Source: a virus (lineage: Duplodnaviria > Heunggongvirae > Uroviricota > Caudoviricetes). From it: a stretch of DNA of 40,634 nucleotides. The position numbers were made by a program, and so were the translations under genes. The stretch lies in IMG/VR virus record IMGVR_UViG_2585427727_000015; one strand, given 5' to 3'. The notes under the pieces are model-generated. The model was given only the letters and a program-made list of their open reading frames with translations, was not told the origin of the DNA and searched no databases. Positions 5,100-39,345 of this stretch are shown piece by piece; position 1 is the stretch's first letter; every line of letters begins with the position of its first letter.

Positions 5100-5684
5100 T
5101 TATTGTTTGTTTTTTTCGTTCTGGTTGATGACAAATTCAATGTAACTTTCGATCTTTGCTTTCTCGGTTTCGGGTAACAATGCGTAGCGCGAGCGGTCAT
5201 AGTTGATGGTCGCAGGGTCGTGCGGGTGAATCAGTAATTCATAGCCGTGACGCCCGAATGCGGATGCAACATTCTCCAGGGTGGAAATGGAAACGCTGAC
5301 CTCATTGTTTAACAGGCGGCTGATTGTCACCTGGGCGACGCCGGATGCGCGGTGAAGTTTTCCCTGTGTTGAAAGGTCGCGGCTTTCGCTCATCCAGCGT
5401 TCCAGGTTGTGAGCCGCCAGCTGACCAATGTCGCTTGGGCCGACAGGCTGAAAACCTTCCTGAGAAAGCGAGCGATCGATATCAAGCCAGTTACGTGGTT
5501 TATTGGCGGCAGCTTCAATTTTTCGCGCAACCTGGTCGCCGATAACCTTCTTGCCAAGAGCCCAGCGGTTTACCAGATTTGCCTGAGTTCCAAGTTTTTC
5601 TGCCATCCGCGTCTGAACACCATTGAATTCACGGTCGATCAAGTCGTTGAGATTTTGCCTGCGGACGTCCTGGATACTTTTCAT
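5100..5684 (-). CDS. Prophage repressor (CI-like; XRE-type HTH, possibly two HTH-like segments; no S24 peptidase domain evident)
   Basis: 194-aa ORF divergent from Cro-like gene; HTH-like segment TRMAEKLGTQANLVNRWALGKK and a second ASGVAQVTISRLLNNEVSVSISTLENVASAFG; flanked on both sides by operator palindromes. Confidence 0.7.
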   Translation of the reverse strand: MKSIQDVRRQNLNDLIDREFNGVQTRMAEKLGTQANLVNRWALGKKVIGDQVARKIEAAANKPRNWLDIDRSLSQEGFQPVGPSDIGQLAAHNLERWMSESRDLSTQGKLHRASGVAQVTISRLLNNEVSVSISTLENVASAFGRHGYELLIHPHDPATINYDRSRYALLPETEKAKIESYIEFVINQNEKNKQ

Positions 5685-5739
5685 TTTCTGGAAAATCGCC
5701 TCATATATGAATCAGTAGATGATTCAATTTAAAGCAATA

Positions 5740-5802
5740 TTACCCAACAGGTAAATGCACCTCATAGGTAACTATCCTTGATTTTTGTTACCTTATGGGT
5801 GA
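5740..5802. promoter_or_regulatory. Tripartite rightward operator (OR-like) between repressor and cro-like gene
   Basis: TTACCCAACAGGTAA (5740-5754, perfect), GCACCTCATAGGTAA (5757-5771, half-site variant), TTACCTTATGGGTGA (5788-5802); plus-strand -35 TTGATT at 5778-5783. Confidence 0.6.
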
Positions 5803-5838
5803 ATATTTATTATCTGAAATAAATATCAGGCAATAGCT

Positions 5839-6069
5839 ATGAGCGATAACGGACATTTCGATTTCAAAAAGCACTGGCTTGCACTTACTCCGGATGAGCG
5901 TGAAGCCTTCGCACAGGAAGCCGGAACGACGAGTCACTATATCCAGACTCACTTAACAGGTAAGCGCAAAATGCCAGGTAAAGTATTGATGAATGGGCTT
6001 TTTAAAGCCTGTAAAACAAGGCAATGGCTGCGCTCAAAAGCAGAACTGGCATACTTCTTCTACTCATGA
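5839..6069 (+). CDS. Cro/YdaS-like small HTH regulator
   Basis: 76-aa ORF divergent from repressor across operator region; HTH-like segment QEAGTTSHYIQTHLTGKRK. Confidence 0.6.
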   Translation: MSDNGHFDFKKHWLALTPDEREAFAQEAGTTSHYIQTHLTGKRKMPGKVLMNGLFKACKTRQWLRSKAELAYFFYS

Positions 6070-6090
6070 TATCCAGCTACAACCCTCTGT

Positions 6091-6114
6091 AGACCGCCAC
6101 CCGGCGGTCTTTTC
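6091..6114 (+). terminator. Rho-independent terminator after cro-like gene (tR1-like)
   Basis: Hairpin AGACCGCC-ACCC-GGCGGTCT followed by TTTT. Confidence 0.65.
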
Positions 6115-6124
6115 ATATCTATTC

Positions 6125-6139
6125 GTACCTCAAAGGTAA
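6125..6139. promoter_or_regulatory. Operator-like palindrome GTACC-N5-GGTAA upstream of replication module
   Basis: One-mismatch copy of the TTACC-N5-GGTAA motif, immediately downstream of the tR1-like terminator. Confidence 0.45.
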
Positions 6140-6219
6140 TAAAAAACCAAATCTGGTTGATCTTTTTTTTGTGTCAGCACAAAATGACCGTAATCCCAAT
6201 ACTAATAACAGGGCTTACC

Positions 6220-6420
6220 ATGGAAATCATTACACGTATTGATGCCGCAAAGCGCGGACTTAAACGCTACTACACCGGAAAAACATGTAAGCACGGACAT
6301 GACAGTGAACGCTGGGTTTACAACGGACACTGTGTTGAGTGCACCATGGAATCAAACCGTCGTATCAGGGCAGAGATTAAGCAGATCATGATTAATTCCT
6401 CCCCACAACATTCAAGCTGA
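6220..6420 (+). CDS. Small zinc-ribbon-like protein (66 aa)
   Basis: C-x-HGH...C-x-x-C spacing (CKHGHD...CVEC); ATG 6220 with AGGG SD-like sequence; precedes O-like gene. Confidence 0.4.
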   Translation: MEIITRIDAAKRGLKRYYTGKTCKHGHDSERWVYNGHCVECTMESNRRIRAEIKQIMINSSPQHSS

Positions 6421-6435
6421 TAGCGGAGATTAATC

Positions 6436-7227
6436 ATGAGCAGACATGCAACAGATTGGGCCTGGGAGACAGATCCAGGTAGCTCGTCATTAAAGCTCAT
6501 ACTGCTCTCGATGGCTGACAGAGCCGATGAATATAACCTCTGCTACCCCAGCATAGAACGCCTCGTTAAAGACACTTGCCTGAATAAAAAAACCGTGCAG
6601 GCCGGACTTATATCGCTCATGAAAATGGGGCTTATTTCAGATACCGGAGAGAGAAAGGGAGCGACGAAAAGAGTGCGGGTTTTCTCTCTTAATATAACCA
6701 AAAACGGGAACATTAAAGGCAACCGGGAAGGGGGTAATGAACCCGAAAACGGTAATGTTACCGAAAACGGGAATATACCCAAAAACGGGATGTTGAATGA
6801 TCCCAAAAACGGGATCCAGAACCAGTCATATAACCAGTCATTTAACCAAGAGAGGGAGAGCAGGACAAAAACCGGGGATTCTGTGCCTCATGACCCCGGC
6901 GCAAACAACGCCGTGATGAATAACTTTGTTCCTCCTGGTGGGCCAGGGCAATTAGGCAAATTTGTCATGCATGAACAATGGCACCCATCAGATGACTTTC
7001 TTCGGAAAAGCTCATTGCAGGGGATCTACCTGGACAGTCTGCCAACGGCACAGGAACTTGCAGAGTTCAGAATTTACTGGATGGCTGAGGGTAAGGCATA
7101 CCATCAGGCACAGTGGGAGCAGAAGCTGGCAAGGCGGCTGCAGATTAGCAGACAGAAGCAATCAACATTACCTGATAACAACGTTCCGCACTGGAACAGC
7201 CCTGAAGCATGGGAGGATTTCTTGTGA
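6436..7227 (+). CDS. Replication initiator, lambda O-like (N-terminal DNA-binding domain, iteron-containing middle, C-terminal P-interaction-like region)
   Basis: 263-aa ORF; gene contains 5 iterons encoding NGN-rich repeats; followed by overlapping P-like gene. Confidence 0.7.
   Translation: MSRHATDWAWETDPGSSSLKLILLSMADRADEYNLCYPSIERLVKDTCLNKKTVQAGLISLMKMGLISDTGERKGATKRVRVFSLNITKNGNIKGNREGGNEPENGNVTENGNIPKNGMLNDPKNGIQNQSYNQSFNQERESRTKTGDSVPHDPGANNAVMNNFVPPGGPGQLGKFVMHEQWHPSDDFLRKSSLQGIYLDSLPTAQELAEFRIYWMAEGKAYHQAQWEQKLARRLQISRQKQSTLPDNNVPHWNSPEAWEDFL
6698..6845. repeat. Replication origin: 5 iterons (consensus about CCSAAAACGGGAAT) plus AT-rich segment with 2x AACCAGTCAT
   Basis: AAAACGG cores at 6701, 6746, 6764, 6782, 6806 (spacings 45/18/18/24); direct repeat AACCAGTCAT at 6820 and 6833; located inside O-like gene as in lambda ori. 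Confidence 0.7.
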
Positions 7228-8009
7228 ACAACGTTTTTACCGCGATACAAAACCGTGACGGAGAAGCCCTTTCTCGCATGTCAGGTTATGAGCATCAGTA
7301 CACCAACAATGACAACGTGGTGAACATGTCAGCAGAGAGGCTTGTTGATGCCCTTTTCAAACAGCTGAAACAACTGTTTCCGGCGGCAGTGGTAACCAAC
7401 CTGAAGACGCCAGAGCAGGAAGTCGCTGCAAAACAGCAGTGGATTGCTGCGTTTGCCGAAGGTGGGATCCGAACCCGTGAACAGGTTTCTGCTGGTATGC
7501 GCCACGCCCGCGCCAGTGAATCTCCGTTCTGGCCGTCGCCAGGGCAATTCATCAAGTGGTGCAAAGACAGCAAGATGGTTCTTGGCGTCACCATTGACGA
7601 TGTGATGGCGGAGTTTCACCGGTACAGCAAGGAAAAAAGTTTATATCCTGGTGGTCCCGAAAGATTCCCGTGGCGGCATCCGGTTATGTACTGGGTCGTA
7701 TGTGATACCCGCCGTGCAATGTATCAGCGCCAGCTTAGCGAGATTGAGGTTGAGAAACACGCGCGCAGGCTGCTCGATGATTGGGCGAAAAAGGTGGCTT
7801 CCGGACAGCAGATACCCGATCCGGTGATCAGCATACAGGCAAAGCCAGAGCCCATGAGTACGCCTCCGGACACAGGGAGAGACGTTTACCATCCACCAGG
7901 GCGAAGTTTCGGGTGTATGCCTAACGCCGCTACCCTGGGGGGAATAACACCGGCGCAGTGGCTGATGGAGGAATACAGGCGGGGAAAGGCGGCAGGATTT
8001 ATCAAGTAA
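7224..8009 (+). CDS. Replication protein P-like (helicase loader)
   Basis: GTG start overlapping O stop (GTGA); region SAGMRHARASESPFWPSPGQFIKWCKD closely resembles lambda P NAGMRVARRQNRPFLPSPGQFVAWCRE. Confidence 0.8.
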   Translation: MNNVFTAIQNRDGEALSRMSGYEHQYTNNDNVVNMSAERLVDALFKQLKQLFPAAVVTNLKTPEQEVAAKQQWIAAFAEGGIRTREQVSAGMRHARASESPFWPSPGQFIKWCKDSKMVLGVTIDDVMAEFHRYSKEKSLYPGGPERFPWRHPVMYWVVCDTRRAMYQRQLSEIEVEKHARRLLDDWAKKVASGQQIPDPVISIQAKPEPMSTPPDTGRDVYHPPGRSFGCMPNAATLGGITPAQWLMEEYRRGKAAGFIK

Positions 8010-8080
8010 TACCAGCGCGATAGCGCATTTTTTTACGTCTTGATAATTACCTGTTGAGTAATAAAATATTCTAAAATCTA

Positions 8081-8123
8081 TTGATTTCGTGTCTTATGTG
8101 GTTTTTAATTACCTTAGGGGTAA
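8081..8123 (+). promoter_or_regulatory. Promoter with operator at +1: TTGATT-N17-TTTAAT followed by TTACCTTAGGGGTAA
   Basis: -35 8081-8086, -10 8104-8109, perfect palindrome 8109-8123 directly upstream of ATG 8127; weaker copy TTACCTGTTGAGTAA at 8047-8061. Confidence 0.5.
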
Positions 8124-8126
8124 ATC

Positions 8127-8471
8127 ATGAGAAAACAGATACAGGCTCTTGGTCGACTCAAAACAGGCCAGATGAACAAAACAGAATCTGCGTATTGCCA
8201 GCACCTTGAGCTGCGTAAACGTGCAGGGGAAATCGCCTGGTATCGATTCGAGGGTATCAAGCTGCGGTTAGCTGATAACACGTTCTATACGCCAGATTTC
8301 GCTGTGATGCTCGCCACCGGAGAGATGGAACTGCACGAAGTGAAAGGTTTCTGGACCGACGACGCCAGGGTGAAAACCAAAGTCGCCGCAGATCAATATC
8401 CGTTCCGAATCATCGGGGTAACTGTTAAGCCAAAGAAAGCAGGTGGTGGCTGGAAAATCGAAGAGTTCTGA
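8127..8471 (+). CDS. PD-(D/E)XK-type nuclease, DUF1064-like (putative Holliday junction resolvase)
   Basis: 114-aa ORF with YTPDFAV...ELHEVKG (D...E-x-K) motif. Confidence 0.5.
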   Translation: MRKQIQALGRLKTGQMNKTESAYCQHLELRKRAGEIAWYRFEGIKLRLADNTFYTPDFAVMLATGEMELHEVKGFWTDDARVKTKVAADQYPFRIIGVTVKPKKAGGGWKIEEF

Positions 8472-34691: not shown

Positions 34692-37007
34692 ATGACGGTC
34701 TCAACCGAAGTTGACCACAACGAATACACAGGTAACGGCGTTACGACATCGTTTCCGTATACTTTTCGAATTTTCAGAAAATCAGACCTGGTTGTTCAGG
34801 TGTCTGACCTGAACGGGAACGTAACAGAATTGGTTCTGGATACCGGTTATACGGTAACTGGGGCGGGCACTTATAGTGGCGGTTCAGTGGTTCTGCCGTC
34901 TCCGCTTGCTGCTGGCTGGCGAATTACGATAGATCGTGTGCTTGATGTAGTGCAGGAGACAGATCTTCGCAATCAGGGAAAATTTTTCCCCGAAGTGCAT
35001 GAAGATGCTTTTGACTACCTGACGATGCTGATCCAGCAATGTTTTGGGTGGTTCAGACGTGCATTGATGAAACCATCTTTGCTTGCAAAATATTACGATG
35101 CAAAGCAAAACAAAATTTCTAACCTTGCAGATCCATCACTTGAGCAGGACGCTGTAAATAATCGCTCAATGCGTAATTATGTCGATGCTGCAATCGCCGG
35201 GGTTGTTGGTGGTTTTGGTTGGTTTATTCAGTATGGTTCTGGAGCAGTATACCGAACGTTCCAGGATAAGATGAGAGACACCGTTAGTGTTTGCGATTTT
35301 GGGGCAAAAGGCGATGGTATAACAGATGATACATCTGCATTGATCTTGGCTGCAGAATATGCACGAGAATCATCCAGAACATTACGAGCGGAAGGTAATT
35401 TTATTATTACGGAGACATTAAATCTTCGTAATGTCAGCCTCGAAATGACCAATGCTGTTTTTACCATATCCCACCCAGGAATAGGGGTATTGCTTGGCGG
35501 GAATGCATCAAACCCTAACAACCCAAGACAAAACTTCGGAACGATTATCAGAAATTCTGGTATTTCATCTGAAACGACACCGGATATTCGTATTATCGGG
35601 GCAAAAGGGCAGCATATAAACATTGAGCGTTGCGACTACTTACAGTTATATGCAAATTATAATGCTTCGGTGGCATCGACGGATTATTCAATAGCATACT
35701 CAACCTTTAACCTGAAAAAGGTCGATACAATTCATTTTCTTGGAGTTGAGAAAGGATGGATAAATGAAAACTATTTTTATCTGAATCGTACGAATAATAT
35801 CATTTTCGCTGATAATCCATATCATCATAACCACAATAAGTTTTATGGTGGAACTATGGAGGGGGCAGGTAAAATTGATATTCAAAGAGGTGATAACAAT
35901 TACTTCTACGGGTTTCGTTTTGAACGATATCCATCATCCCAAACTAACCAACAGTTGATAATTAACTTTGGTGAATATACGTGGAATAACTCAATTGAAG
36001 CTACATGGTTAAGTTCTCCTTACTATACAAATGAGCCATACAATCCATCACCTTACACTTATGTCGAGGTAACTGATAATGGCAAGGGGAATGCAGTATT
36101 TCATATTCAGGAAAATATATCCGATGAAGTAACATTGTTTTCTTTAAATGCTAACACCCCATTTATATCCAGTGCTAACAATGGAGAAGTTGGTGTATTA
36201 GCATTTCAAACAGATGTAGATGGTTTATATAATATCCGTCACCTGGTTTCTTCTAAGTTTGCTTTTATGCGGAATTTTGGGTTGTTATGGGAATCTGGAG
36301 ATGTACCAGTAAGAAATGGTGATATGTTTACATTCTCAGCAGATACGGCATCGTTTCGCATTTACCTGTATGCATTAGATGGAGATGGGAATGTCATAAC
36401 TTCACAAACAGAAGCAATAACTTCTTCTATGCAATGGGATTCATCTAACCATAGATATGCTACTGTTGCTAACATTTCTTCCATTAAGATCAGGATTAAT
36501 AATGAAGGGGTTCCAGTTAGTGCAATTCGTTTAGCTGTGTATTCTGGTGGTAATGTAGCGAATACTGCATTTTCATGGCTATGCTTAACTGGTAGATATT
36601 ACAAAAATAGCACATCCTTGCCAAGGAAAAGAAAAGATAACTTCACCTTAAAACAAGGAAAAGCAATTACTTATTATAGTGATACTGATATTAGTATGGC
36701 TAACATTGGTTCAGGAATTACCTGTTATAAAACCGATTTATCTGAACTCAAAATTAATCTTGTAAGGGGCAGGTATGTAGTGAAATCAATTTCAGGCAGT
36801 GAAATATATGTATACCAAGGAACAGTCACTTATTACCCTCCATTCAGTGATATCAAATTGGTATATACGGATGGGGTTGAAAATAAATTATTAGATGTGC
36901 AAAACATCTCTTCAGGAAAGATTACTCTTGCAGATACAGTACCATCAGCTATATCTGCAGGCGATTTTGTAGATGTTATTGTTACAAAGACGAAATCTAT
37001 TTTATGA
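34692..37007 (+). CDS. Tailspike protein (conserved N-terminal particle-binding domain, AT-rich C-terminal receptor-binding domain, likely O-antigen depolymerase)
   Basis: 771-aa ORF; N-terminus MTVSTEVDHNEYTGNGVTTSFPYTFRIF matches (from memory) the N-terminal domain shared by epsilon15/phiV10-type tailspikes; C-terminal two-thirds markedly lower GC. Confidence 0.8.
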   Translation: MTVSTEVDHNEYTGNGVTTSFPYTFRIFRKSDLVVQVSDLNGNVTELVLDTGYTVTGAGTYSGGSVVLPSPLAAGWRITIDRVLDVVQETDLRNQGKFFPEVHEDAFDYLTMLIQQCFGWFRRALMKPSLLAKYYDAKQNKISNLADPSLEQDAVNNRSMRNYVDAAIAGVVGGFGWFIQYGSGAVYRTFQDKMRDTVSVCDFGAKGDGITDDTSALILAAEYARESSRTLRAEGNFIITETLNLRNVSLEMTNAVFTISHPGIGVLLGGNASNPNNPRQNFGTIIRNSGISSETTPDIRIIGAKGQHINIERCDYLQLYANYNASVASTDYSIAYSTFNLKKVDTIHFLGVEKGWINENYFYLNRTNNIIFADNPYHHNHNKFYGGTMEGAGKIDIQRGDNNYFYGFRFERYPSSQTNQQLIINFGEYTWNNSIEATWLSSPYYTNEPYNPSPYTYVEVTDNGKGNAVFHIQENISDEVTLFSLNANTPFISSANNGEVGVLAFQTDVDGLYNIRHLVSSKFAFMRNFGLLWESGDVPVRNGDMFTFSADTASFRIYLYALDGDGNVITSQTEAITSSMQWDSSNHRYATVANISSIKIRINNEGVPVSAIRLAVYSGGNVANTAFSWLCLTGRYYKNSTSLPRKRKDNFTLKQGKAITYYSDTDISMANIGSGITCYKTDLSELKINLVRGRYVVKSISGSEIYVYQGTVTYYPPFSDIKLVYTDGVENKLLDVQNISSGKITLADTVPSAISAGDFVDVIVTKTKSIL

Positions 37008-37041
37008 AGTGTTTATTTATCCTTATGTTAAAGGAGCGATA

Positions 37042-37326
37042 ATGGATATAACGCCTTTCCTTCATGCGTTTTGTGCTGTGGCTGCGCAGGTACTGATTGG
37101 CCTTTTTACCGGAAACTGGGCTTACGGGGCGATAGCCGGTTGTACGTTCTTCATTGCGCGTGAACACACCCAGGCAGAATATCGCTGGATTGAAATGTTC
37201 GGGCATGGCAAGCGTATGAATATGCCGTGGTGGGGAGGTTTTGATCCGCGCGTATGGGATGTTGGAAGCCTGTTTGACTTTGTTGTTCCTGTTACTGTTT
37301 GTTTTGGTGTTTATTTCTATATTTGA
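37042..37326 (+). CDS. Small membrane protein (94 aa), function unknown
   Basis: AAGGAG SD 5 nt before ATG; hydrophobic N- and C-terminal segments; followed by stable hairpin 37333-37353. Confidence 0.55.
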   Translation: MDITPFLHAFCAVAAQVLIGLFTGNWAYGAIAGCTFFIAREHTQAEYRWIEMFGHGKRMNMPWWGGFDPRVWDVGSLFDFVVPVTVCFGVYFYI

Positions 37327-37475
37327 CTGCTACCGCGCCATTTGATGGCGCGGAATTCAACTAAGCCTCTATATTTTAAATAATTTCTGTACTGCAATCT
37401 CTTCAGAGTTATGTAAAAGGCGAGCCTTATTATCGACATCAAAGGCAGGGGATTTACGATGCTAGGGTAACAAAA

Positions 37476-37489
37476 AACCATAAATGGTT
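37476..37489. promoter_or_regulatory. Palindrome AACCATAAATGGTT upstream of lysis cassette
   Basis: Perfect 6-2-6 inverted repeat about 60 bp upstream of holin start. Confidence 0.35.
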
Positions 37490-37547
37490 TATCATGCATG
37501 ATGCTTTATTATTTAGGGGGTCGTTATGCATATAAATGGTGGAAAAT

Positions 37548-37952
37548 ATGTCAGCTCAACTAACCAGTGAAACATTAAATCAGTGGCTTAGCATGAGTTC
37601 TCTGGCGGCGGTGATAGCAGGAGTGCCTCCTGAGGTTGCTTTGGGAGCTTTGGCTGGCGCGGTAATTTTTGTTACCTCTGCGGTAGAGTACCCAATTCGT
37701 CGTCGCGTACTCTTGTCGATGCTTAGTTTTCTCTGCGGACTTCTTTTCTACAAACCAGCAGCATCAATTCTTATCGGCATAGCCAGCCTGATACCTACCA
37801 TCACGCAGGACTCTTTCGAGAAAGGGATTGTTTTCTCTGCTGGCGCATTTGTGTCAGCAATCGTCGCAGTACGAATTGGCATCTGGCTCTATCACCGTTC
37901 CGATAACCCACGCGAGTTAATTCCGGGGAGAAAAGACGATGGTAACGCATGA
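37548..37952 (+). CDS. Putative holin (class with 3 TM segments; alternative upstream start at 37536 gives dual-start motif)
   Basis: Hydrophobic segments, charged C-terminus, GGTGGA SD; located immediately upstream of endolysin. Confidence 0.6.
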   Translation: MSAQLTSETLNQWLSMSSLAAVIAGVPPEVALGALAGAVIFVTSAVEYPIRRRVLLSMLSFLCGLLFYKPAASILIGIASLIPTITQDSFEKGIVFSAGAFVSAIVAVRIGIWLYHRSDNPRELIPGRKDDGNA

Positions 37953-38247
37953 GTTTTTTTTGCTTATCACCAATGCAGTTATTTGTACTGGCATAGCAAT
38001 TCGCGTTGTCACTTTCCGGCGTAACGGTTCACAACACCGAAGATGGGGGGGGTGGCTTGCTTATTTCCTGATTGTTGCTGCAGCCAGTATTCCAGTTCGT
38101 GTCGTCTATGCAATCTGGTTACGCACGCCAATGGCTGTGGATTTATCTGAAGTCATTATCAACGCTGTCATGCTTGCTGCGGTTATTAAAACGCGCGGTA
38201 ACGTCGTTCAGATTTTCAAAATAACGAGGTCTAAACATGGAGATTAA
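37939..38247 (+). CDS. Second small membrane protein of lysis cassette (holin/antiholin-like)
   Basis: 102-aa ORF with 2-3 hydrophobic segments overlapping neighbours on both sides. Confidence 0.5.
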
Positions 38248-38866: not shown

Positions 38867-39345
38867 TCTGGGCATTCGTAAAAGCATACTGGAAACAGTT
38901 GATTATCGTGGCAGTGCTTGCTGTTCTGGTCATATCAGGAGTTGTTGCCTGGAATATACACGGCAGTCGCCAGTACGATGCCGGGTATGCTCAGGCGGAA
39001 GAAGACCGCAAAGCCGAAGAAGACAAAGTTCGTCAGTACTACGAACAGGAGAAAGTGACCAATGAACGTGAAGCTCAGCAGAGGATCGACCAGGCGCGCA
39101 ATGATGCTCTTGATGCTGCCGCTAGCGCTGGCCGGTTGCAGCAACAACTCTTTGCCATCCGTGAGCAGCTCAGGCAGTATAACGCCATTGTCGGCGCTGG
39201 GTCGTCAGCCGCAGACACCGGAGTTTTGCTTGCCGACGTGCTCAGCAAATCTCTCGAGAGAAACAGACAACTGGCAGAGTATGCTGACCGGGCAGCCGAA
39301 GCCGGAAGAGTCTGCGAAAAACAGTACGACACTTTGACCAGATAG
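38863..39345 (+). CDS. i-spanin (Rz-like)
   Basis: N-terminal TM helix then charged coiled-coil; contains embedded lipoprotein ORF in +1 frame. Confidence 0.75.
39062..39337 (+). CDS. o-spanin (Rz1-like outer-membrane lipoprotein) embedded within i-spanin gene; true start may be an internal Met (39101/39104)
   Basis: Lipobox LALAGC after signal-like MMLLMLP; nested in alternate frame of Rz-like gene. Confidence 0.6.
   Translation: MNVKLSRGSTRRAMMLLMLPLALAGCSNNSLPSVSSSGSITPLSALGRQPQTPEFCLPTCSANLSRETDNWQSMLTGQPKPEESAKNSTTL

What the first reader, a model, noticed from the sequence alone, without database searches (positions are those of the whole stretch)
6698..6845. Replication origin iterons embedded in the O-like initiator gene
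Five copies of an about 14-bp repeat (core AAAACGG, three at exactly 18-bp spacing) followed by a duplicated AACCAGTCAT in an AT-richer stretch, all inside the coding sequence and translated as NGN repeats. This is the lambda ori-in-O arrangement and locates the phage origin.
Basis: seen in the sequence. Interest (0 to 1): 0.35.

Follow-up and report, generated by a model that had tools for sequence, protein, structure and literature searches.

The report
Phage replication origin inside initiator gene
A block of five repeated protein-binding sites plus a short easily-melted repeat sits inside the phage's own replication-initiator gene, the classic lambda-style origin layout, here in a phiV10-like coliphage whose initiator is a different protein type; it is real and conserved but an ordinary kind of feature.

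Summary
CCNAAAACGG occurs five times in 40.6 kb, all at 6698-6812 (0.29 expected), followed by AACCAGTCAT(A/T)T twice. They lie in gene 6436-7227, between an N-terminal HTH_36 domain and a C-terminal DnaT-like domain. A lambda-P-type helicase loader gene follows.

The window alone cannot separate DNA-level from peptide-level repeats, because all five copies share one frame. Relatives can. I picked about 80 species-diverse homologues using the N-terminal 87 aa only. Of these, 70 carry at least 3 copies of a dyad repeat at the same place. Spacings are mostly 17, 22 or 24 nt, so the motif is read in all three frames within intact ORFs. Most also have GAAYC repeats of 12-13 nt period and a GC dip just downstream. 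Homologues sharing only the C-terminal domain lack the repeats. Copy number varies from 2 to 6 among near-identical prophages.

The best reading is an origin of iterons plus an unwinding element, embedded in and inherited with the initiator's DNA-binding domain. The protein is not a lambda O family member; its architecture is that described for DopC. No replication or binding data exist. It is a new member of a known kind, of modest interest.

The parts
6436..7227 (+). Replication initiator gene (263 aa): HTH_36 winged-helix N-terminal domain, low-complexity linker, DnaT-type C-terminal domain
   Evidence: Pfam HTH_36 at aa 18-67 (1.7e-10) and DnaT at aa 176-244 (4.5e-15). PHROG 1032 'replication initiation protein', 2.9e-102. 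PDB E. coli DnaT CTD, E 3e-20 over aa 172-257.
6436..6696 (+). Coding region of the N-terminal DNA-binding domain (aa 1-87), the inferred iteron reader
   Evidence: This was the only part used as query (A3) to collect relatives. All 73 full-length relatives scanned hit HTH_36.
6692..6713 (+). Iteron 1 (ATATAACCAAAAACGGGAACAT; core 6698-6707)
6717..6738 (+). Possible decayed iteron (AGGCAACCGGGAAGGGGGTAAT; keeps the CC-N6-GG skeleton, lacks the A-tract); low confidence
   Evidence: Read from the sequence. It is the most variable stretch among close relatives (columns 88-97).
6737..6758 (+). Iteron 2 (ATGAACCCGAAAACGGTAATGT; core 6743-6752)
6755..6776 (+). Iteron 3 (ATGTTACCGAAAACGGGAATAT; core 6761-6770)
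6773..6794 (+). Iteron 4 (ATATACCCAAAAACGGGATGTT; core 6779-6788); first copy of the 24-bp unit whose number varies between strains
6797..6818 (+). Iteron 5 (ATGATCCCAAAAACGGGATCCA; core 6803-6812); perfect 6-bp inverted arms GATCCC/GGGATC
6818..6855 (+). Three tandem 12-bp units (G/T)AACCAGTCAT(A/T)T, the third partial (AACCAAGAGAGG); candidate DNA-unwinding element; 34% GC over 6817-6845
   Evidence: The family-wide equivalent is GAAYC repeats of period 12-13 within 70 nt after the last iteron: 54 of 69 loci against 7 of 2672 control tiles. GC dips 0.07-0.14 below the locus mean at +30 to +60.
6846..6863 (+). Purine-rich run (AAGAGAGGGAGAGCAGGA) on the coding strand
   Evidence: Region 6846-6880 is 77% purine on the top strand.
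6860..6881 (+). Possible extra iteron-like half-site (GCAGGACAAAAACCGGGGATTC; ACAAAAAACGGGGAT in relatives); low confidence
   Evidence: (family D4), consensus.
6949..7206 (+). Coding region of the DnaT-type C-terminal domain (aa 172-257)
   Evidence: tblastn shows this half has a separate set of relatives (SPN1S, Tyrion, Rac YdaU) that lack the repeats.
7224..8009 (+). Lambda-P-type helicase loader gene; its GTG start overlaps the initiator stop (GTGA). The mechanical ORF list gives an ATG at 7209.
   Evidence: Pfam Phage_lambda_P 1.5e-56. PHROG 109 'P-like helicase loader'. The start follows the phiV10 annotation.
6091..6110 (+). Terminator-like hairpin between the cro-like gene (5839-6069) and the replication genes; sets the transcriptional context of the origin
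   Evidence: Annotated as a putative rho-independent terminator in phiV10.

Best explanation
Region 6692-6855 (perhaps extending to 6881) is the phage's replication origin, embedded in the gene for its own initiator.

Proposed mechanism:
- Five iterons of about 18-22 bp, each a partial dyad CC(C)-A-tract-GGG, are the binding sites for dimers of the initiator's N-terminal winged-helix (HTH_36) domain.
- Cooperative binding builds an O-some-like nucleoprotein complex.
- That complex stresses the adjacent, less stable 12-bp (G/T)AACC repeat region, which opens.
- The initiator's C-terminal DnaT-type domain then recruits the P-like loader-DnaB complex, coats the exposed single strand, or does both. 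Host DnaB is loaded there.
- Transcription from the early rightward operon passes through the site, as it does in lambda.

Shown here: the repeats, their position in the linker-coding segment, the domain architecture, the P-like neighbour, family-wide conservation of the DNA motif independent of reading frame, co-inheritance with the N-terminal domain only, the downstream GAAYC/AT-rich element, and copy-number polymorphism.

Inferred: that the initiator binds these sites, that unwinding occurs at the 12-mers, the role of the DnaT-type domain, and origin activity itself.
For: (1) Non-random and unique. There are 5 of 5 CCNAAAACGG in a 115-bp block against 0.29 expected in 40.6 kb.

(2) Placement. 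The block lies between HTH_36 (aa 18-67) and DnaT_C (aa 172-257), in a gene followed by a P-like loader and downstream of the repressor/cro-like genes.

(3) Unbiased family test. Relatives were fetched with aa 1-87 only, with the repeat region excluded (A3).
- Their top 10-mer repeat count in +200 to +600 nt averages 4.45, against 1.99 upstream and 2.20 downstream.
- 70 of 80 loci have at least 3 copies.

(4) DNA-level constraint.
- Adjacent spacings are 17 (67 times), 22 (45), 24 (43) and 18 (12). Only 60 of 190 are multiples of 3, which is the chance rate.
- In single intact ORFs the same CCCAAAAACGG is read as VPKTE, SQKRN and PKNGT (L112), or PKNGI, PKTEP and QKRTL (L096).
- In GF-2 the change AAC to ATT (Asn to Ile) lengthens the palindrome ATCCCAA/TTGGGAT.
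- In the window the repeats use CCC (10% of Pro codons) and GGG (18% of Gly codons).

(5) Co-inheritance. GF-2, PPompW, Vibrio H20 and AP22 share the N-terminal domain and have the repeats. SPN1S and Tyrion share only the C-terminal domain and do not. C-terminal domains and downstream loaders vary: DnaT 7, Phg_2220_C 5 and DnaA_N 2 among C-termini; P 16, DnaB 2 and IstB 2 among neighbours.

(6) Second element. GAAYC repeats of period 10-13 occur within 70 nt after the last iteron in 54 of 69 loci against 0.3% of control tiles. 45 of 95 periods are not multiples of 3. A GC dip follows.

(7) Resemblance to oriλ. Lambda iterons ATCCCTCAAAACGAGGGAT are annotated inside O, followed by an A-rich tract. 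The published description of lambdoid origins matches (PMC7466680).

(8) Iteron number varies from 2 to 6 among near-identical prophages, as it does between lambda (4) and Stx phages (6).
Against: - There are no experimental data: no binding, origin mapping or plasmid replication assay for this phage or any relative that I could find.
- In this window all five cores share one frame, so the window alone cannot separate DNA-level from peptide-level constraint.
- Dyad symmetry is imperfect, with 3-6 of 8 arm positions paired.
- The 'AT-rich' element is weak here: 34% GC over 29 bp, the 10th percentile of stability.
- Family loci are not phylogenetically independent; many are Acinetobacter.
- Sequence similarity of the N-terminal domain to lambda O is not significant in my tests: BLASTP found nothing and hhalign gave 10% probability.
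- The cumulative GC-skew minimum lies about 1 kb to the left, at the divergent-transcription point, and is confounded by gene orientation.
Confidence: 0.8

Rival explanations
1. The repeats are a protein-level feature only: an Asn/Gly/Pro-rich tandem-repeat linker (xPKNGx) produced by in-frame slippage, with no DNA-level role.
For: In the window every copy is in the same frame and every spacing is a multiple of 3. The region is low-complexity and aligns as NxPKNG motifs in several relatives. Unit number varies by slippage-like steps of 24 and 12 bp.
Against: In relatives the DNA motif is kept while the peptide is not: spacings of 17, 22 and 23 nt occur and all three frames are used within intact ORFs. 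Rare codons CCC and GGG are used consistently. There is dyad symmetry at the DNA level. Domesticated DopC proteins of the same architecture are reported to lack iterons (PMC5509034), so the protein does not need them.
Confidence: 0.04
2. The repeats are binding sites for the initiator, but they serve autoregulation, copy control or exclusion (a transcriptional roadblock, titration, or handcuffing-like control) and are not the site where replication starts. The true start lies elsewhere.
For: Iterons in plasmids do double duty in control, which is established plasmid biology. Extra ori-lambda copies inhibit lambda (titles and abstracts of PMC3349717 and PMC4488673). The local stability minimum is not striking.
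Against: The conserved AT-poorer/GAAYC 12-13-mer element immediately 3' of the last iteron across the family looks like an unwinding element attached to the iterons. No other iteron-like cluster exists in the 40.6-kb window. The module travels as one cassette with different loaders.
Confidence: 0.08
3. The repeats are recognised by some other factor (host IHF/Fis/DnaA, the phage repressor, or the small 66-aa Zn-ribbon-like protein encoded at 6220-6420) and not by the protein that contains them.
For: No binding data exist. The 66-aa protein is conserved next to the gene in phiV10-like phages.
Against: The repeats track the HTH_36 N-terminal domain across hosts as distant as Acinetobacter, Vibrio, Halodesulfovibrio and Sphingomonadales, whatever the neighbouring genes. 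GF-2, H20 and AP22 have different upstream genes. The same motif class occurs in different host genera, and different classes occur within Acinetobacter.
Confidence: 0.04
4. It is a functionless hypervariable minisatellite tolerated in a disordered linker.
For: There are 2-6 copies of the 24-bp unit among near-identical prophages.
Against: Diverged copies are maintained at the same place in homologues with only 40-60% N-terminal identity from many genera, together with a conserved second element. That is long-term retention, not transient expansion.
Confidence: 0.03

Closest known systems
Bacteriophage lambda ori-lambda inside gene O (also Stx phages 933W and P27)
   Same: Direct repeats of about 18-20 bp with internal dyad symmetry and a central A-tract: lambda ATCCCTCAAAACGAGGGAT, here GATCCCAAAAACGGGATC. 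They lie in the middle of the initiator gene, in the segment between the DNA-binding N-terminal part and the C-terminal part. A less stable, A-rich stretch follows on the 3' side, and then a P-type helicase-loader gene. The module sits in the early rightward operon after the immunity genes. Iteron number differs between related phages.
   Different: The initiator is not a Pfam Phage_rep_O protein and lacks the O-type C-terminus (Phg_2220_C). It has HTH_36 plus a DnaT-type C-terminal domain. There are five, possibly seven, sites instead of four. Spacings are 18 and 24 here and 17/22/24 in the family. The downstream element is a 12-bp tandem repeat of moderate AT content, not a 40-bp strongly AT-rich tract. 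No biochemical data exist.
DopC/DopE pair (Brezellec et al. 2017, PMC5509034): O- and P-derived genes domesticated in Cellvibrionales/Oceanospirillales
   Same: The protein architecture is the one that paper describes: HTH_36 N-terminus plus DnaT C-terminal motif, immediately upstream of a lambda-P-family gene.
   Different: The authors report no iteron-like sequences in dopC and conclude that it is no longer an origin. The phage gene here carries a full iteron array plus 12-mers. It therefore looks like the mobile, origin-bearing form of that architecture. I did not examine dopC loci myself.
Iteron plasmid origins (RK2 oriV/TrfA, F/RepE, pPS10/RepA) with 13-mer DUE repeats
   Same: The logic is the same: an array of iterons bound by a winged-helix initiator, next to short tandem repeats of about 11-13 bp in the unwinding region. 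Rep proteins can bind those repeats as single strands (PMC4081077 abstract).
   Different: There is no Pfam Rep_3-type hit. The origin is inside the coding sequence. No DnaA boxes were looked for or seen. A phage P-type loader is used instead of DnaA/DnaC-dependent loading.
E. coli DnaT (primosomal protein I)
   Same: The C-terminal 85 aa are homologous to the DnaT C-terminal domain (E 3e-20). That domain filaments on single-stranded DNA in the preprimosome (PMC13377028).
   Different: The N-terminal half is unrelated to the DnaT N-terminal domain. It is a sequence-specific HTH domain instead, so targeting would be by iterons and not by PriA/PriB.

Membership tests
Lambda-type origin embedded in the initiator gene (ori-in-O arrangement) | Array of at least 3-4 direct repeats of about 18-20 bp inside the initiator ORF | tested here: met
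   Five copies at 6692-6818 inside ORF 6436-7227.
Lambda-type origin embedded in the initiator gene (ori-in-O arrangement) | Each repeat has internal inverted symmetry (a dimer-binding site) | tested here: inconclusive
   Perfect 6-bp arms in copy 5, 6 of 8 in copy 3, and 3-5 of 8 in the others. The symmetry is clear in relatives, e.g. AGTACCGAAAACGGTACT and ATCCCAAAATTGGGAT.
Lambda-type origin embedded in the initiator gene (ori-in-O arrangement) | Repeats lie in the segment coding the linker between the DNA-binding and C-terminal domains | tested here: met
   The repeats encode aa 86-128. HTH_36 ends at aa 67 and DnaT_C starts at about aa 172. The join between the two homologue sets falls at aa 131-153.
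Lambda-type origin embedded in the initiator gene (ori-in-O arrangement) | AT-rich, easily unwound region directly 3' of the iterons | tested here: inconclusive
   In the window the element is modest: 34% GC over 29 bp, and the least-stable 10% of 40-mers. In the family, GC falls 0.07-0.14 below the locus mean at +30 to +60 and many loci have A-runs.
Lambda-type origin embedded in the initiator gene (ori-in-O arrangement) | Helicase-loader (P-type) gene immediately downstream | tested here: met
   PF06992 at 1.5e-56, with overlapping stop and start.
Lambda-type origin embedded in the initiator gene (ori-in-O arrangement) | Initiator binds the repeats, and the fragment supports initiator-dependent replication | not testable with these tools
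   Needs EMSA or footprinting and a plasmid replication or origin-mapping assay.
Lambda O protein family (Pfam PF04492 Phage_rep_O N-terminus plus PF09524 Phg_2220_C C-terminus) | Match to PF04492 | tested here: not met
   No hit even at E up to 10 for aa 1-87. The lambda O control scores 5.7e-36. BLASTP against lambda O is not significant and hhalign gives 10% probability. Remote N-terminal homology is claimed from HHpred in PMC5509034.
Lambda O protein family (Pfam PF04492 Phage_rep_O N-terminus plus PF09524 Phg_2220_C C-terminus) | O-type C-terminal domain | tested here: not met
   The C-terminus is DnaT-type. Phg_2220_C is found in 5 other family members, not in this one.
DopC-type O-like proteins (HTH_36 + DnaT_C, paired with a P-family gene) | HTH_36 N-terminus, DnaT C-terminal motif, P-family gene downstream | tested here: met
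   The definition comes from PMC5509034.
DopC-type O-like proteins (HTH_36 + DnaT_C, paired with a P-family gene) | Chromosomal, domesticated, without iterons | tested here: not met
   The gene here is in a phiV10-like phage genome and carries iterons. It shares the architecture but is not the domesticated form.
E. coli DnaT / primosomal protein I (the name used in several GenBank annotations of this gene) | DnaT N-terminal oligomerisation domain plus C-terminal ssDNA-binding domain | tested here: not met
   Only the C-terminal domain matches: aa 172-257 against DnaT 85-170. The N-terminus is HTH_36.
Plasmid iteron initiators (Rep_3 / RepA-TrfA-pi type) | Match to a plasmid Rep family | tested here: not met
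   No such Pfam hit at E up to 10 for the N-terminal domain. Only weak DnaD_N (0.031) and others appear. RP-C is hit in 1 of 73 relatives.

The most novel reading that the evidence does not exclude
The origin cassette has two sequence-specific parts that both co-evolve with the HTH_36 domain: dyad iterons and phased GAAYC 12-13-mers. The 12-13-mers would be a specific element read by the initiator, on one strand after melting or as duplex, and not merely an AT-rich spacer. In this phage the DnaT-type C-terminal domain would then filament on the opened strand to mark the DnaB loading site. That would make the protein a single-chain analogue of DnaA (duplex-site binding plus a single-strand filament) that hands over to a lambda-P loader. 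It would give a tractable phage model for how DnaT-type domains act in helicase loading.
Probability: 0.2. Interest if true: 0.55.

Novelty: new member of a known kind. Interest (0 to 1): 0.3.

Why it matters
It places the probable origin of phiV10-like Uetakevirus coliphages at a defined 165-190-bp segment. None of the GenBank or RefSeq records I inspected annotates it. This is useful for annotation, for building phage-derived replicons, and for understanding replication incompatibility and exclusion among these common E. coli prophages.

The family survey adds a small generalisation. HTH_36-type phage initiators across Proteobacteria carry a portable cassette made of the DNA-binding domain, dyad iterons at 17/22/24-bp spacing, and GAAYC 12-13-mers. 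That cassette is recombined with different C-terminal and helicase-loader modules. The survey also identifies a phage-borne, iteron-bearing gene with the architecture published for domesticated DopC.

None of this overturns current understanding. It extends the lambda paradigm.

Tried and rejected
- **Direct similarity to lambda O.** BLASTP was not significant. hhalign of the N-terminal alignment against O aa 1-118 gave 10% probability. Pfam PF04492 gave no hit. Membership in the O family is rejected; remote homology rests on a published HHpred statement only.
- **GC-skew origin mapping.** The cumulative minimum is at about 5-6 kb. It coincides with the switch in gene orientation, so it is uninformative.
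- **Promoter and terminator scan of 5600-8200.** Counts are at chance level. The minus-strand 'terminator' at 6805-6786 is just iteron dyad plus A-run. No role is assigned to it.
- **-1 frameshift idea.** I considered the repeated C-AAA-AAC as a -1 frameshift site and rejected it. The base before AAA is C, so it is not an X-XXY-YYZ heptamer, and in relatives the motif occurs in all frames.
- **Literature.** I found no paper in the held library linking phiV10, epsilon15 or Uetakevirus with iterons or an origin. The epsilon15 genome paper could not be retrieved by the identifiers I tried, and the phiV10 genome paper was not looked up. A prior textual mention therefore cannot be excluded.
- **Sequence-string search.** It returned only papillomavirus E2-site and primer hits, which are coincidental.
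- **Codon-choice probability.** The value of 6e-10 is reported but given little weight, because the copies arose by duplication and are not independent.
- **Structure prediction and the large protein searches.** Not run. Domain identities were already clear from Pfam, PHROG and PDB, and the result would not bear on the DNA feature.
Full report
**1. What is in the sequence**

Region 6690-6818 holds five in-register copies of a 21-24-nt unit. They start at 6690, 6735, 6753, 6771 and 6795, with spacings of 45, 18, 18 and 24. Tandem Repeats Finder independently reports a period-18 array at 6733-6788 and a period-12 array at 6820-6848.

The core CCNAAAACGG occurs five times in the whole 40,634-bp window on either strand, all within 6698-6812. 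Dinucleotide-preserving shuffles give 0.29 on average and never reached five. With the longer CCCAAAAACGGGA, every match with two or fewer mismatches lies in this block, and the three-mismatch matches elsewhere are at chance level.

AACCAGTCAT is exact at 6820 and 6832. A third, degenerate unit (AACCAAGAGAGG) follows.

I add three points:
- Each unit is a partial palindrome of the form CC(C)-AAAAAC-GGG. It is perfect in copy 5 (GATCCC AAAAAC GGGATC), 6 of 8 arm positions in copy 3, and 3-5 of 8 in the others.
- There are two weaker iteron-like stretches, 6717-6738 and 6860-6881.
- The 'AT-richer stretch' is only moderately so. Region 6817-6845 is 34% GC against 48.5% for the window. It is in the least-stable 10% of 40-mers but is not the local extreme.

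**2. The gene and its neighbours**

ORF 6436-7227 (263 aa) has a Pfam HTH_36 domain at aa 18-67 and a DnaT DNA-binding domain at aa 176-244. It matches PHROG 1032 'replication initiation protein' end to end. Its C-terminal 85 residues match the solved C-terminal domain of E. coli DnaT at E 3e-20.

The repeats encode aa 86-128, an Asn/Gly/Pro-rich linker between the two domains.

The next gene is a lambda-P-family helicase loader (PF06992, 1.5e-56). Its start is at 7224 by homology with the phiV10 annotation, forming a GTGA overlap. Upstream lie a two-HTH repressor on the other strand (5100-5684), a cro-like gene (5839-6069), a terminator-like hairpin (6091-6110) and a 66-aa protein of unknown function.

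The window is a phiV10-type Uetakevirus genome. This gene is 94-99% identical to those of phiV10, phiv142-3, PAS61 and EC.W1-9. None of the annotated records I inspected marks an origin there, and the PH444 record carries no annotation at all.

**3. Is the repetition a DNA feature or a peptide feature?**

The window alone cannot tell. All five cores sit in the same codon phase and all spacings are multiples of three. I therefore used relatives.

*Close relatives.* They show unit-number polymorphism. The 24-bp unit is present twice here and in BP9, and three times in phiV10, EC.W1-9, phiv142-3, PAS61, YDC107_2 and PH444. The 12-mer is present three times in phiV10. Among 80 near-identical IMG/VR prophages the strict 11-mer motif that marks the 24-bp unit, CCNAAAA[A/C][C/T]GG, is found 2 to 6 times.

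*Distant relatives.* I built a query from the N-terminal 87 residues only, so that the repeat region could not bias the selection (A3). I searched one genome per species. The 80 loci come from enterics, Vibrio, Pseudoalteromonas, Marinomonas, Acinetobacter, Halodesulfovibrio, Sulfuricella, Sphingomonadales and others.
- In the 400 nt after the domain, the most-repeated 10-mer (one mismatch allowed) occurs 4.45 times on average, against 1.99 in the 400 nt upstream and 2.20 further downstream.
- 70 of 80 loci have at least three copies.
- The motifs are variants on one theme, (A)GTnCC-N6-GGnAC(T). Examples are AGTACCGAAAACGGTACT, GTCCCAACAATGGGAC and ATCCCAAAATTGGGAT.

*The decisive observation.* The commonest spacings are 17 nt (67 cases), 22 (45) and 24 (43). 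Only 60 of 190 adjacent spacings are multiples of three, exactly the chance proportion. Within single intact ORFs the same CCCAAAAACGG is translated as VPKTE, SQKRN and PKNGT (L112), or PKNGI, PKTEP and QKRTL (L096). A peptide repeat cannot explain that. The constraint is on the DNA.

*Consistent details.*
- In Edwardsiella phage GF-2 a radical Asn-to-Ile change (AAC to ATT) lengthens the DNA palindrome.
- In the window the repeats consistently use CCC and GGG, which make up 10% of Pro and 18% of Gly codons in this genome's long ORFs. I give this little weight because duplicated copies are not independent.

**4. What the repeats travel with**

tblastn shows two separate sets of relatives for the two halves of the protein. 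The join falls at aa 131-153, just after the repeats.

Phages sharing the N-terminal domain (GF-2, PPompW, Vibrio H20, Acinetobacter AP22) have the repeats at the same place. Phages sharing only the DnaT-type C-terminus (SPN1S, Tyrion) do not.

Across the 73 full-length family members, all have HTH_36. The C-termini differ: DnaT-type in 7, lambda-O-type Phg_2220_C in 5, DnaA_N in 2, and unassigned in the rest. The downstream genes also differ: P-type in 16 of 52 scanned, plus DnaB-like helicases, IstB/DnaC-like ATPases and others.

So the DNA-binding domain and the repeats form one cassette that is recombined with different helicase-recruitment modules. Binding sites and their reader would be expected to stay linked in this way. 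It is also the modular logic long described for lambdoid O genes (established knowledge; summarised in PMC7466680).

**5. A second conserved element**

Directly after the last iteron, most family members have two or three GAAYC-containing units at a period of about one helical turn. Examples are CAGAACCAGTCATTAGAACCAGTCATAAAACC, CAGAATCTACCAAAGAATCTACCAGTAGAATCTAAAAATAAAAAA and CGGAACCGTAAGGAACCGTACAGAACCGTCAGG.
- At least two GAAYC spaced 9-13 nt apart occur within 70 nt after the last iteron in 54 of 69 loci, and at least three in 41. Only 7 of 2672 control tiles show this.
- Periods are 12 (50 cases), 13 (38), 11 (5) and 10 (2), so again they are not tied to codons.
- GC falls 0.07-0.14 below each locus mean at +30 to +60 nt.

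In the window the counterpart is GAACC at 6818, TAACC at 6830 and TAACC at 6842. This looks like the unwinding element of the origin, comparable in position to the AT-rich tract of ori-lambda and in form to the 13-mers of oriC and of iteron plasmids. That comparison rests on my knowledge of those systems and on the abstract of PMC4081077.

**6. Most likely mechanism**

- Dimers of the N-terminal winged-helix domain bind the five dyad iterons and build a bent nucleoprotein complex.
- The adjacent 12-mer region opens.
- The C-terminal domain brings in the P-like loader with host DnaB, or coats the exposed strand, or both.
- Replication starts there, helped by early rightward transcription through the site.

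The anatomy and the comparative pattern are shown. Binding, unwinding, the role of the C-terminal domain and origin activity are inferred. For the C-terminal domain, the only direct information is that the E. coli DnaT C-terminal domain forms a filament on single-stranded DNA that marks a helicase-loading site (PMC13377028). I put the main explanation at about 0.8.

Rivals:
- Peptide-only repeat (0.04). Contradicted by frame independence.
- Initiator-binding sites used only for control and not for initiation (0.08). Made less likely by the attached unwinding-type element and by the lack of any other iteron cluster in the genome.
- Sites for another factor (0.04). The repeats follow the HTH_36 domain across very different hosts and neighbours.
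- A functionless minisatellite (0.03). Contradicted by long-term retention.

**7. Comparison with what is known**

*What it works like.* It resembles ori-lambda in gene O. The RefSeq lambda record annotates four iterons inside O at 39034-39118, with sequences such as ATCCCTCAAAACGAGGGAT, followed by an A-rich tract and then P. The iteron shape, TCCC - A-tract - GGGA, is strikingly like the one here. Stx phages differ from lambda in iteron number, six against four, as the phiV10-like phages differ among themselves.

*Membership.* The protein is not a lambda O family member. PF04492 gives no hit even at E up to 10, while lambda O scores 5.7e-36. BLASTP and hhalign are not significant, and the C-terminus is of another type.

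Its architecture is the one Brezellec et al. described for DopC: HTH_36 plus DnaT C-terminal motif, next to the P-derived DopE. In those domesticated chromosomal genes the authors found no iterons and concluded the locus is no longer an origin (PMC5509034). The gene here looks like the phage-borne, origin-bearing form of that architecture.

The GenBank names 'primosomal protein I' and 'DnaT' given to this gene in several records are misleading. Only the C-terminal domain is DnaT-like.

**8. Novelty and score**

The kind of feature is textbook, so a specialist would not be surprised. What is new is modest:
- The origin of phiV10-like phages is located and is unannotated in the records I saw.
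- I found no paper in the held library describing it. The epsilon15 genome paper could not be retrieved and the phiV10 genome paper was not looked up, so an earlier mention cannot be excluded.
- The family-wide cassette of HTH_36 domain, dyad iterons at 17/22/24-bp spacing, and GAAYC 12-13-mers is a tidy generalisation.

I rate it a new member of a known kind, interest 0.3.

The most novel reading still open is that the GAAYC repeats are a specific initiator-read element, and that the DnaT-type domain filaments on the melted strand. That would make this a DnaA-like single-chain initiator feeding a P-type loader. I give it a probability of about 0.2.

Noticed in passing
L002 (PP488543.1, Escherichia phage BP9, 133437-137228) and L007 (PP350014.1, phage PH444): A 138-kb record classified as Vequintavirus, and a 115-kb 'UNVERIFIED_ORG' record, carry this Uetakevirus-type repressor/initiator/P module at 99% and 96% identity. 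In BP9 it lies within the last 3.5 kb of the record. These look like chimeric or co-assembled records, not real gene transfer.
   Followed up: no
L006 (CP025713.1, Escherichia phage YDC107_2) 1501-2316: The initiator gene is broken into fragments by single-base indels, several of them in the A-runs of the iterons (CCCAAAAAACGGG). This is probably homopolymer sequencing error, and the record's CDS calls there are artefacts.
   Followed up: partly
window 6220-6420 (+): A 66-aa protein with a CxxH...CxxC motif (PHROG 1081, unknown function, no Pfam hit) is conserved immediately upstream of the initiator in phiV10-like phages. Its role, if any, in replication control is unknown.
   Followed up: no
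window 6091-6110 (+): A strong terminator-like hairpin with a T-run lies between the cro-like gene and the replication genes, and is annotated as a terminator in phiV10. It implies that transcription into the origin needs read-through or antitermination, as at lambda tR1.
   Followed up: no
window 7224-7227: The initiator stop and the P-like gene start overlap as GTGA, suggesting translational coupling. The mechanical ORF list instead extends the P-like ORF to an ATG at 7209.
   Followed up: partly
L015-L094 (IMG/VR prophages nearly identical to the window in aa 1-87): Initiator ORF lengths range from 792 to 888 nt, mainly through 24-bp unit number (2 to 6 copies, most often 3). A few ORFs are truncated (549 and 696 nt). 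The iteron array behaves as a variable-number tandem repeat that could serve as a strain marker.
   Followed up: partly
L012 (Salmonella phage SPN1S) 1030-1845: This Uetakevirus has a different N-terminal domain on the same DnaT-type C-terminus, no comparable repeat array in the gene, and no P-like gene after it; DUF1064 follows directly. Its origin must be organised differently.
   Followed up: no
L103, L126 and L010 iterons (e.g. GTACCGAAAACGGTAC): Some family iterons are exact matches to the papillomavirus E2 binding-site consensus ACCG-N4-CGGT. The literature string search returned mostly HPV papers. This is a coincidental convergence on an ACC-N6-GGT dyad with an A-tract spacer.
   Followed up: no
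L136, L148, L152, L172 and L009, just after the GAAYC repeats: Enterobacterial relatives share AAAGATCTAAA(A/C)CC after the repeats, containing GATC (a Dam site) and resembling the start of the oriC 13-mers. It is absent from the window.
   Followed up: no
window 35000-38000: GC content drops to 0.37-0.40 against 0.485 overall. This may be a horizontally acquired cargo or host-range gene region.
   Followed up: no
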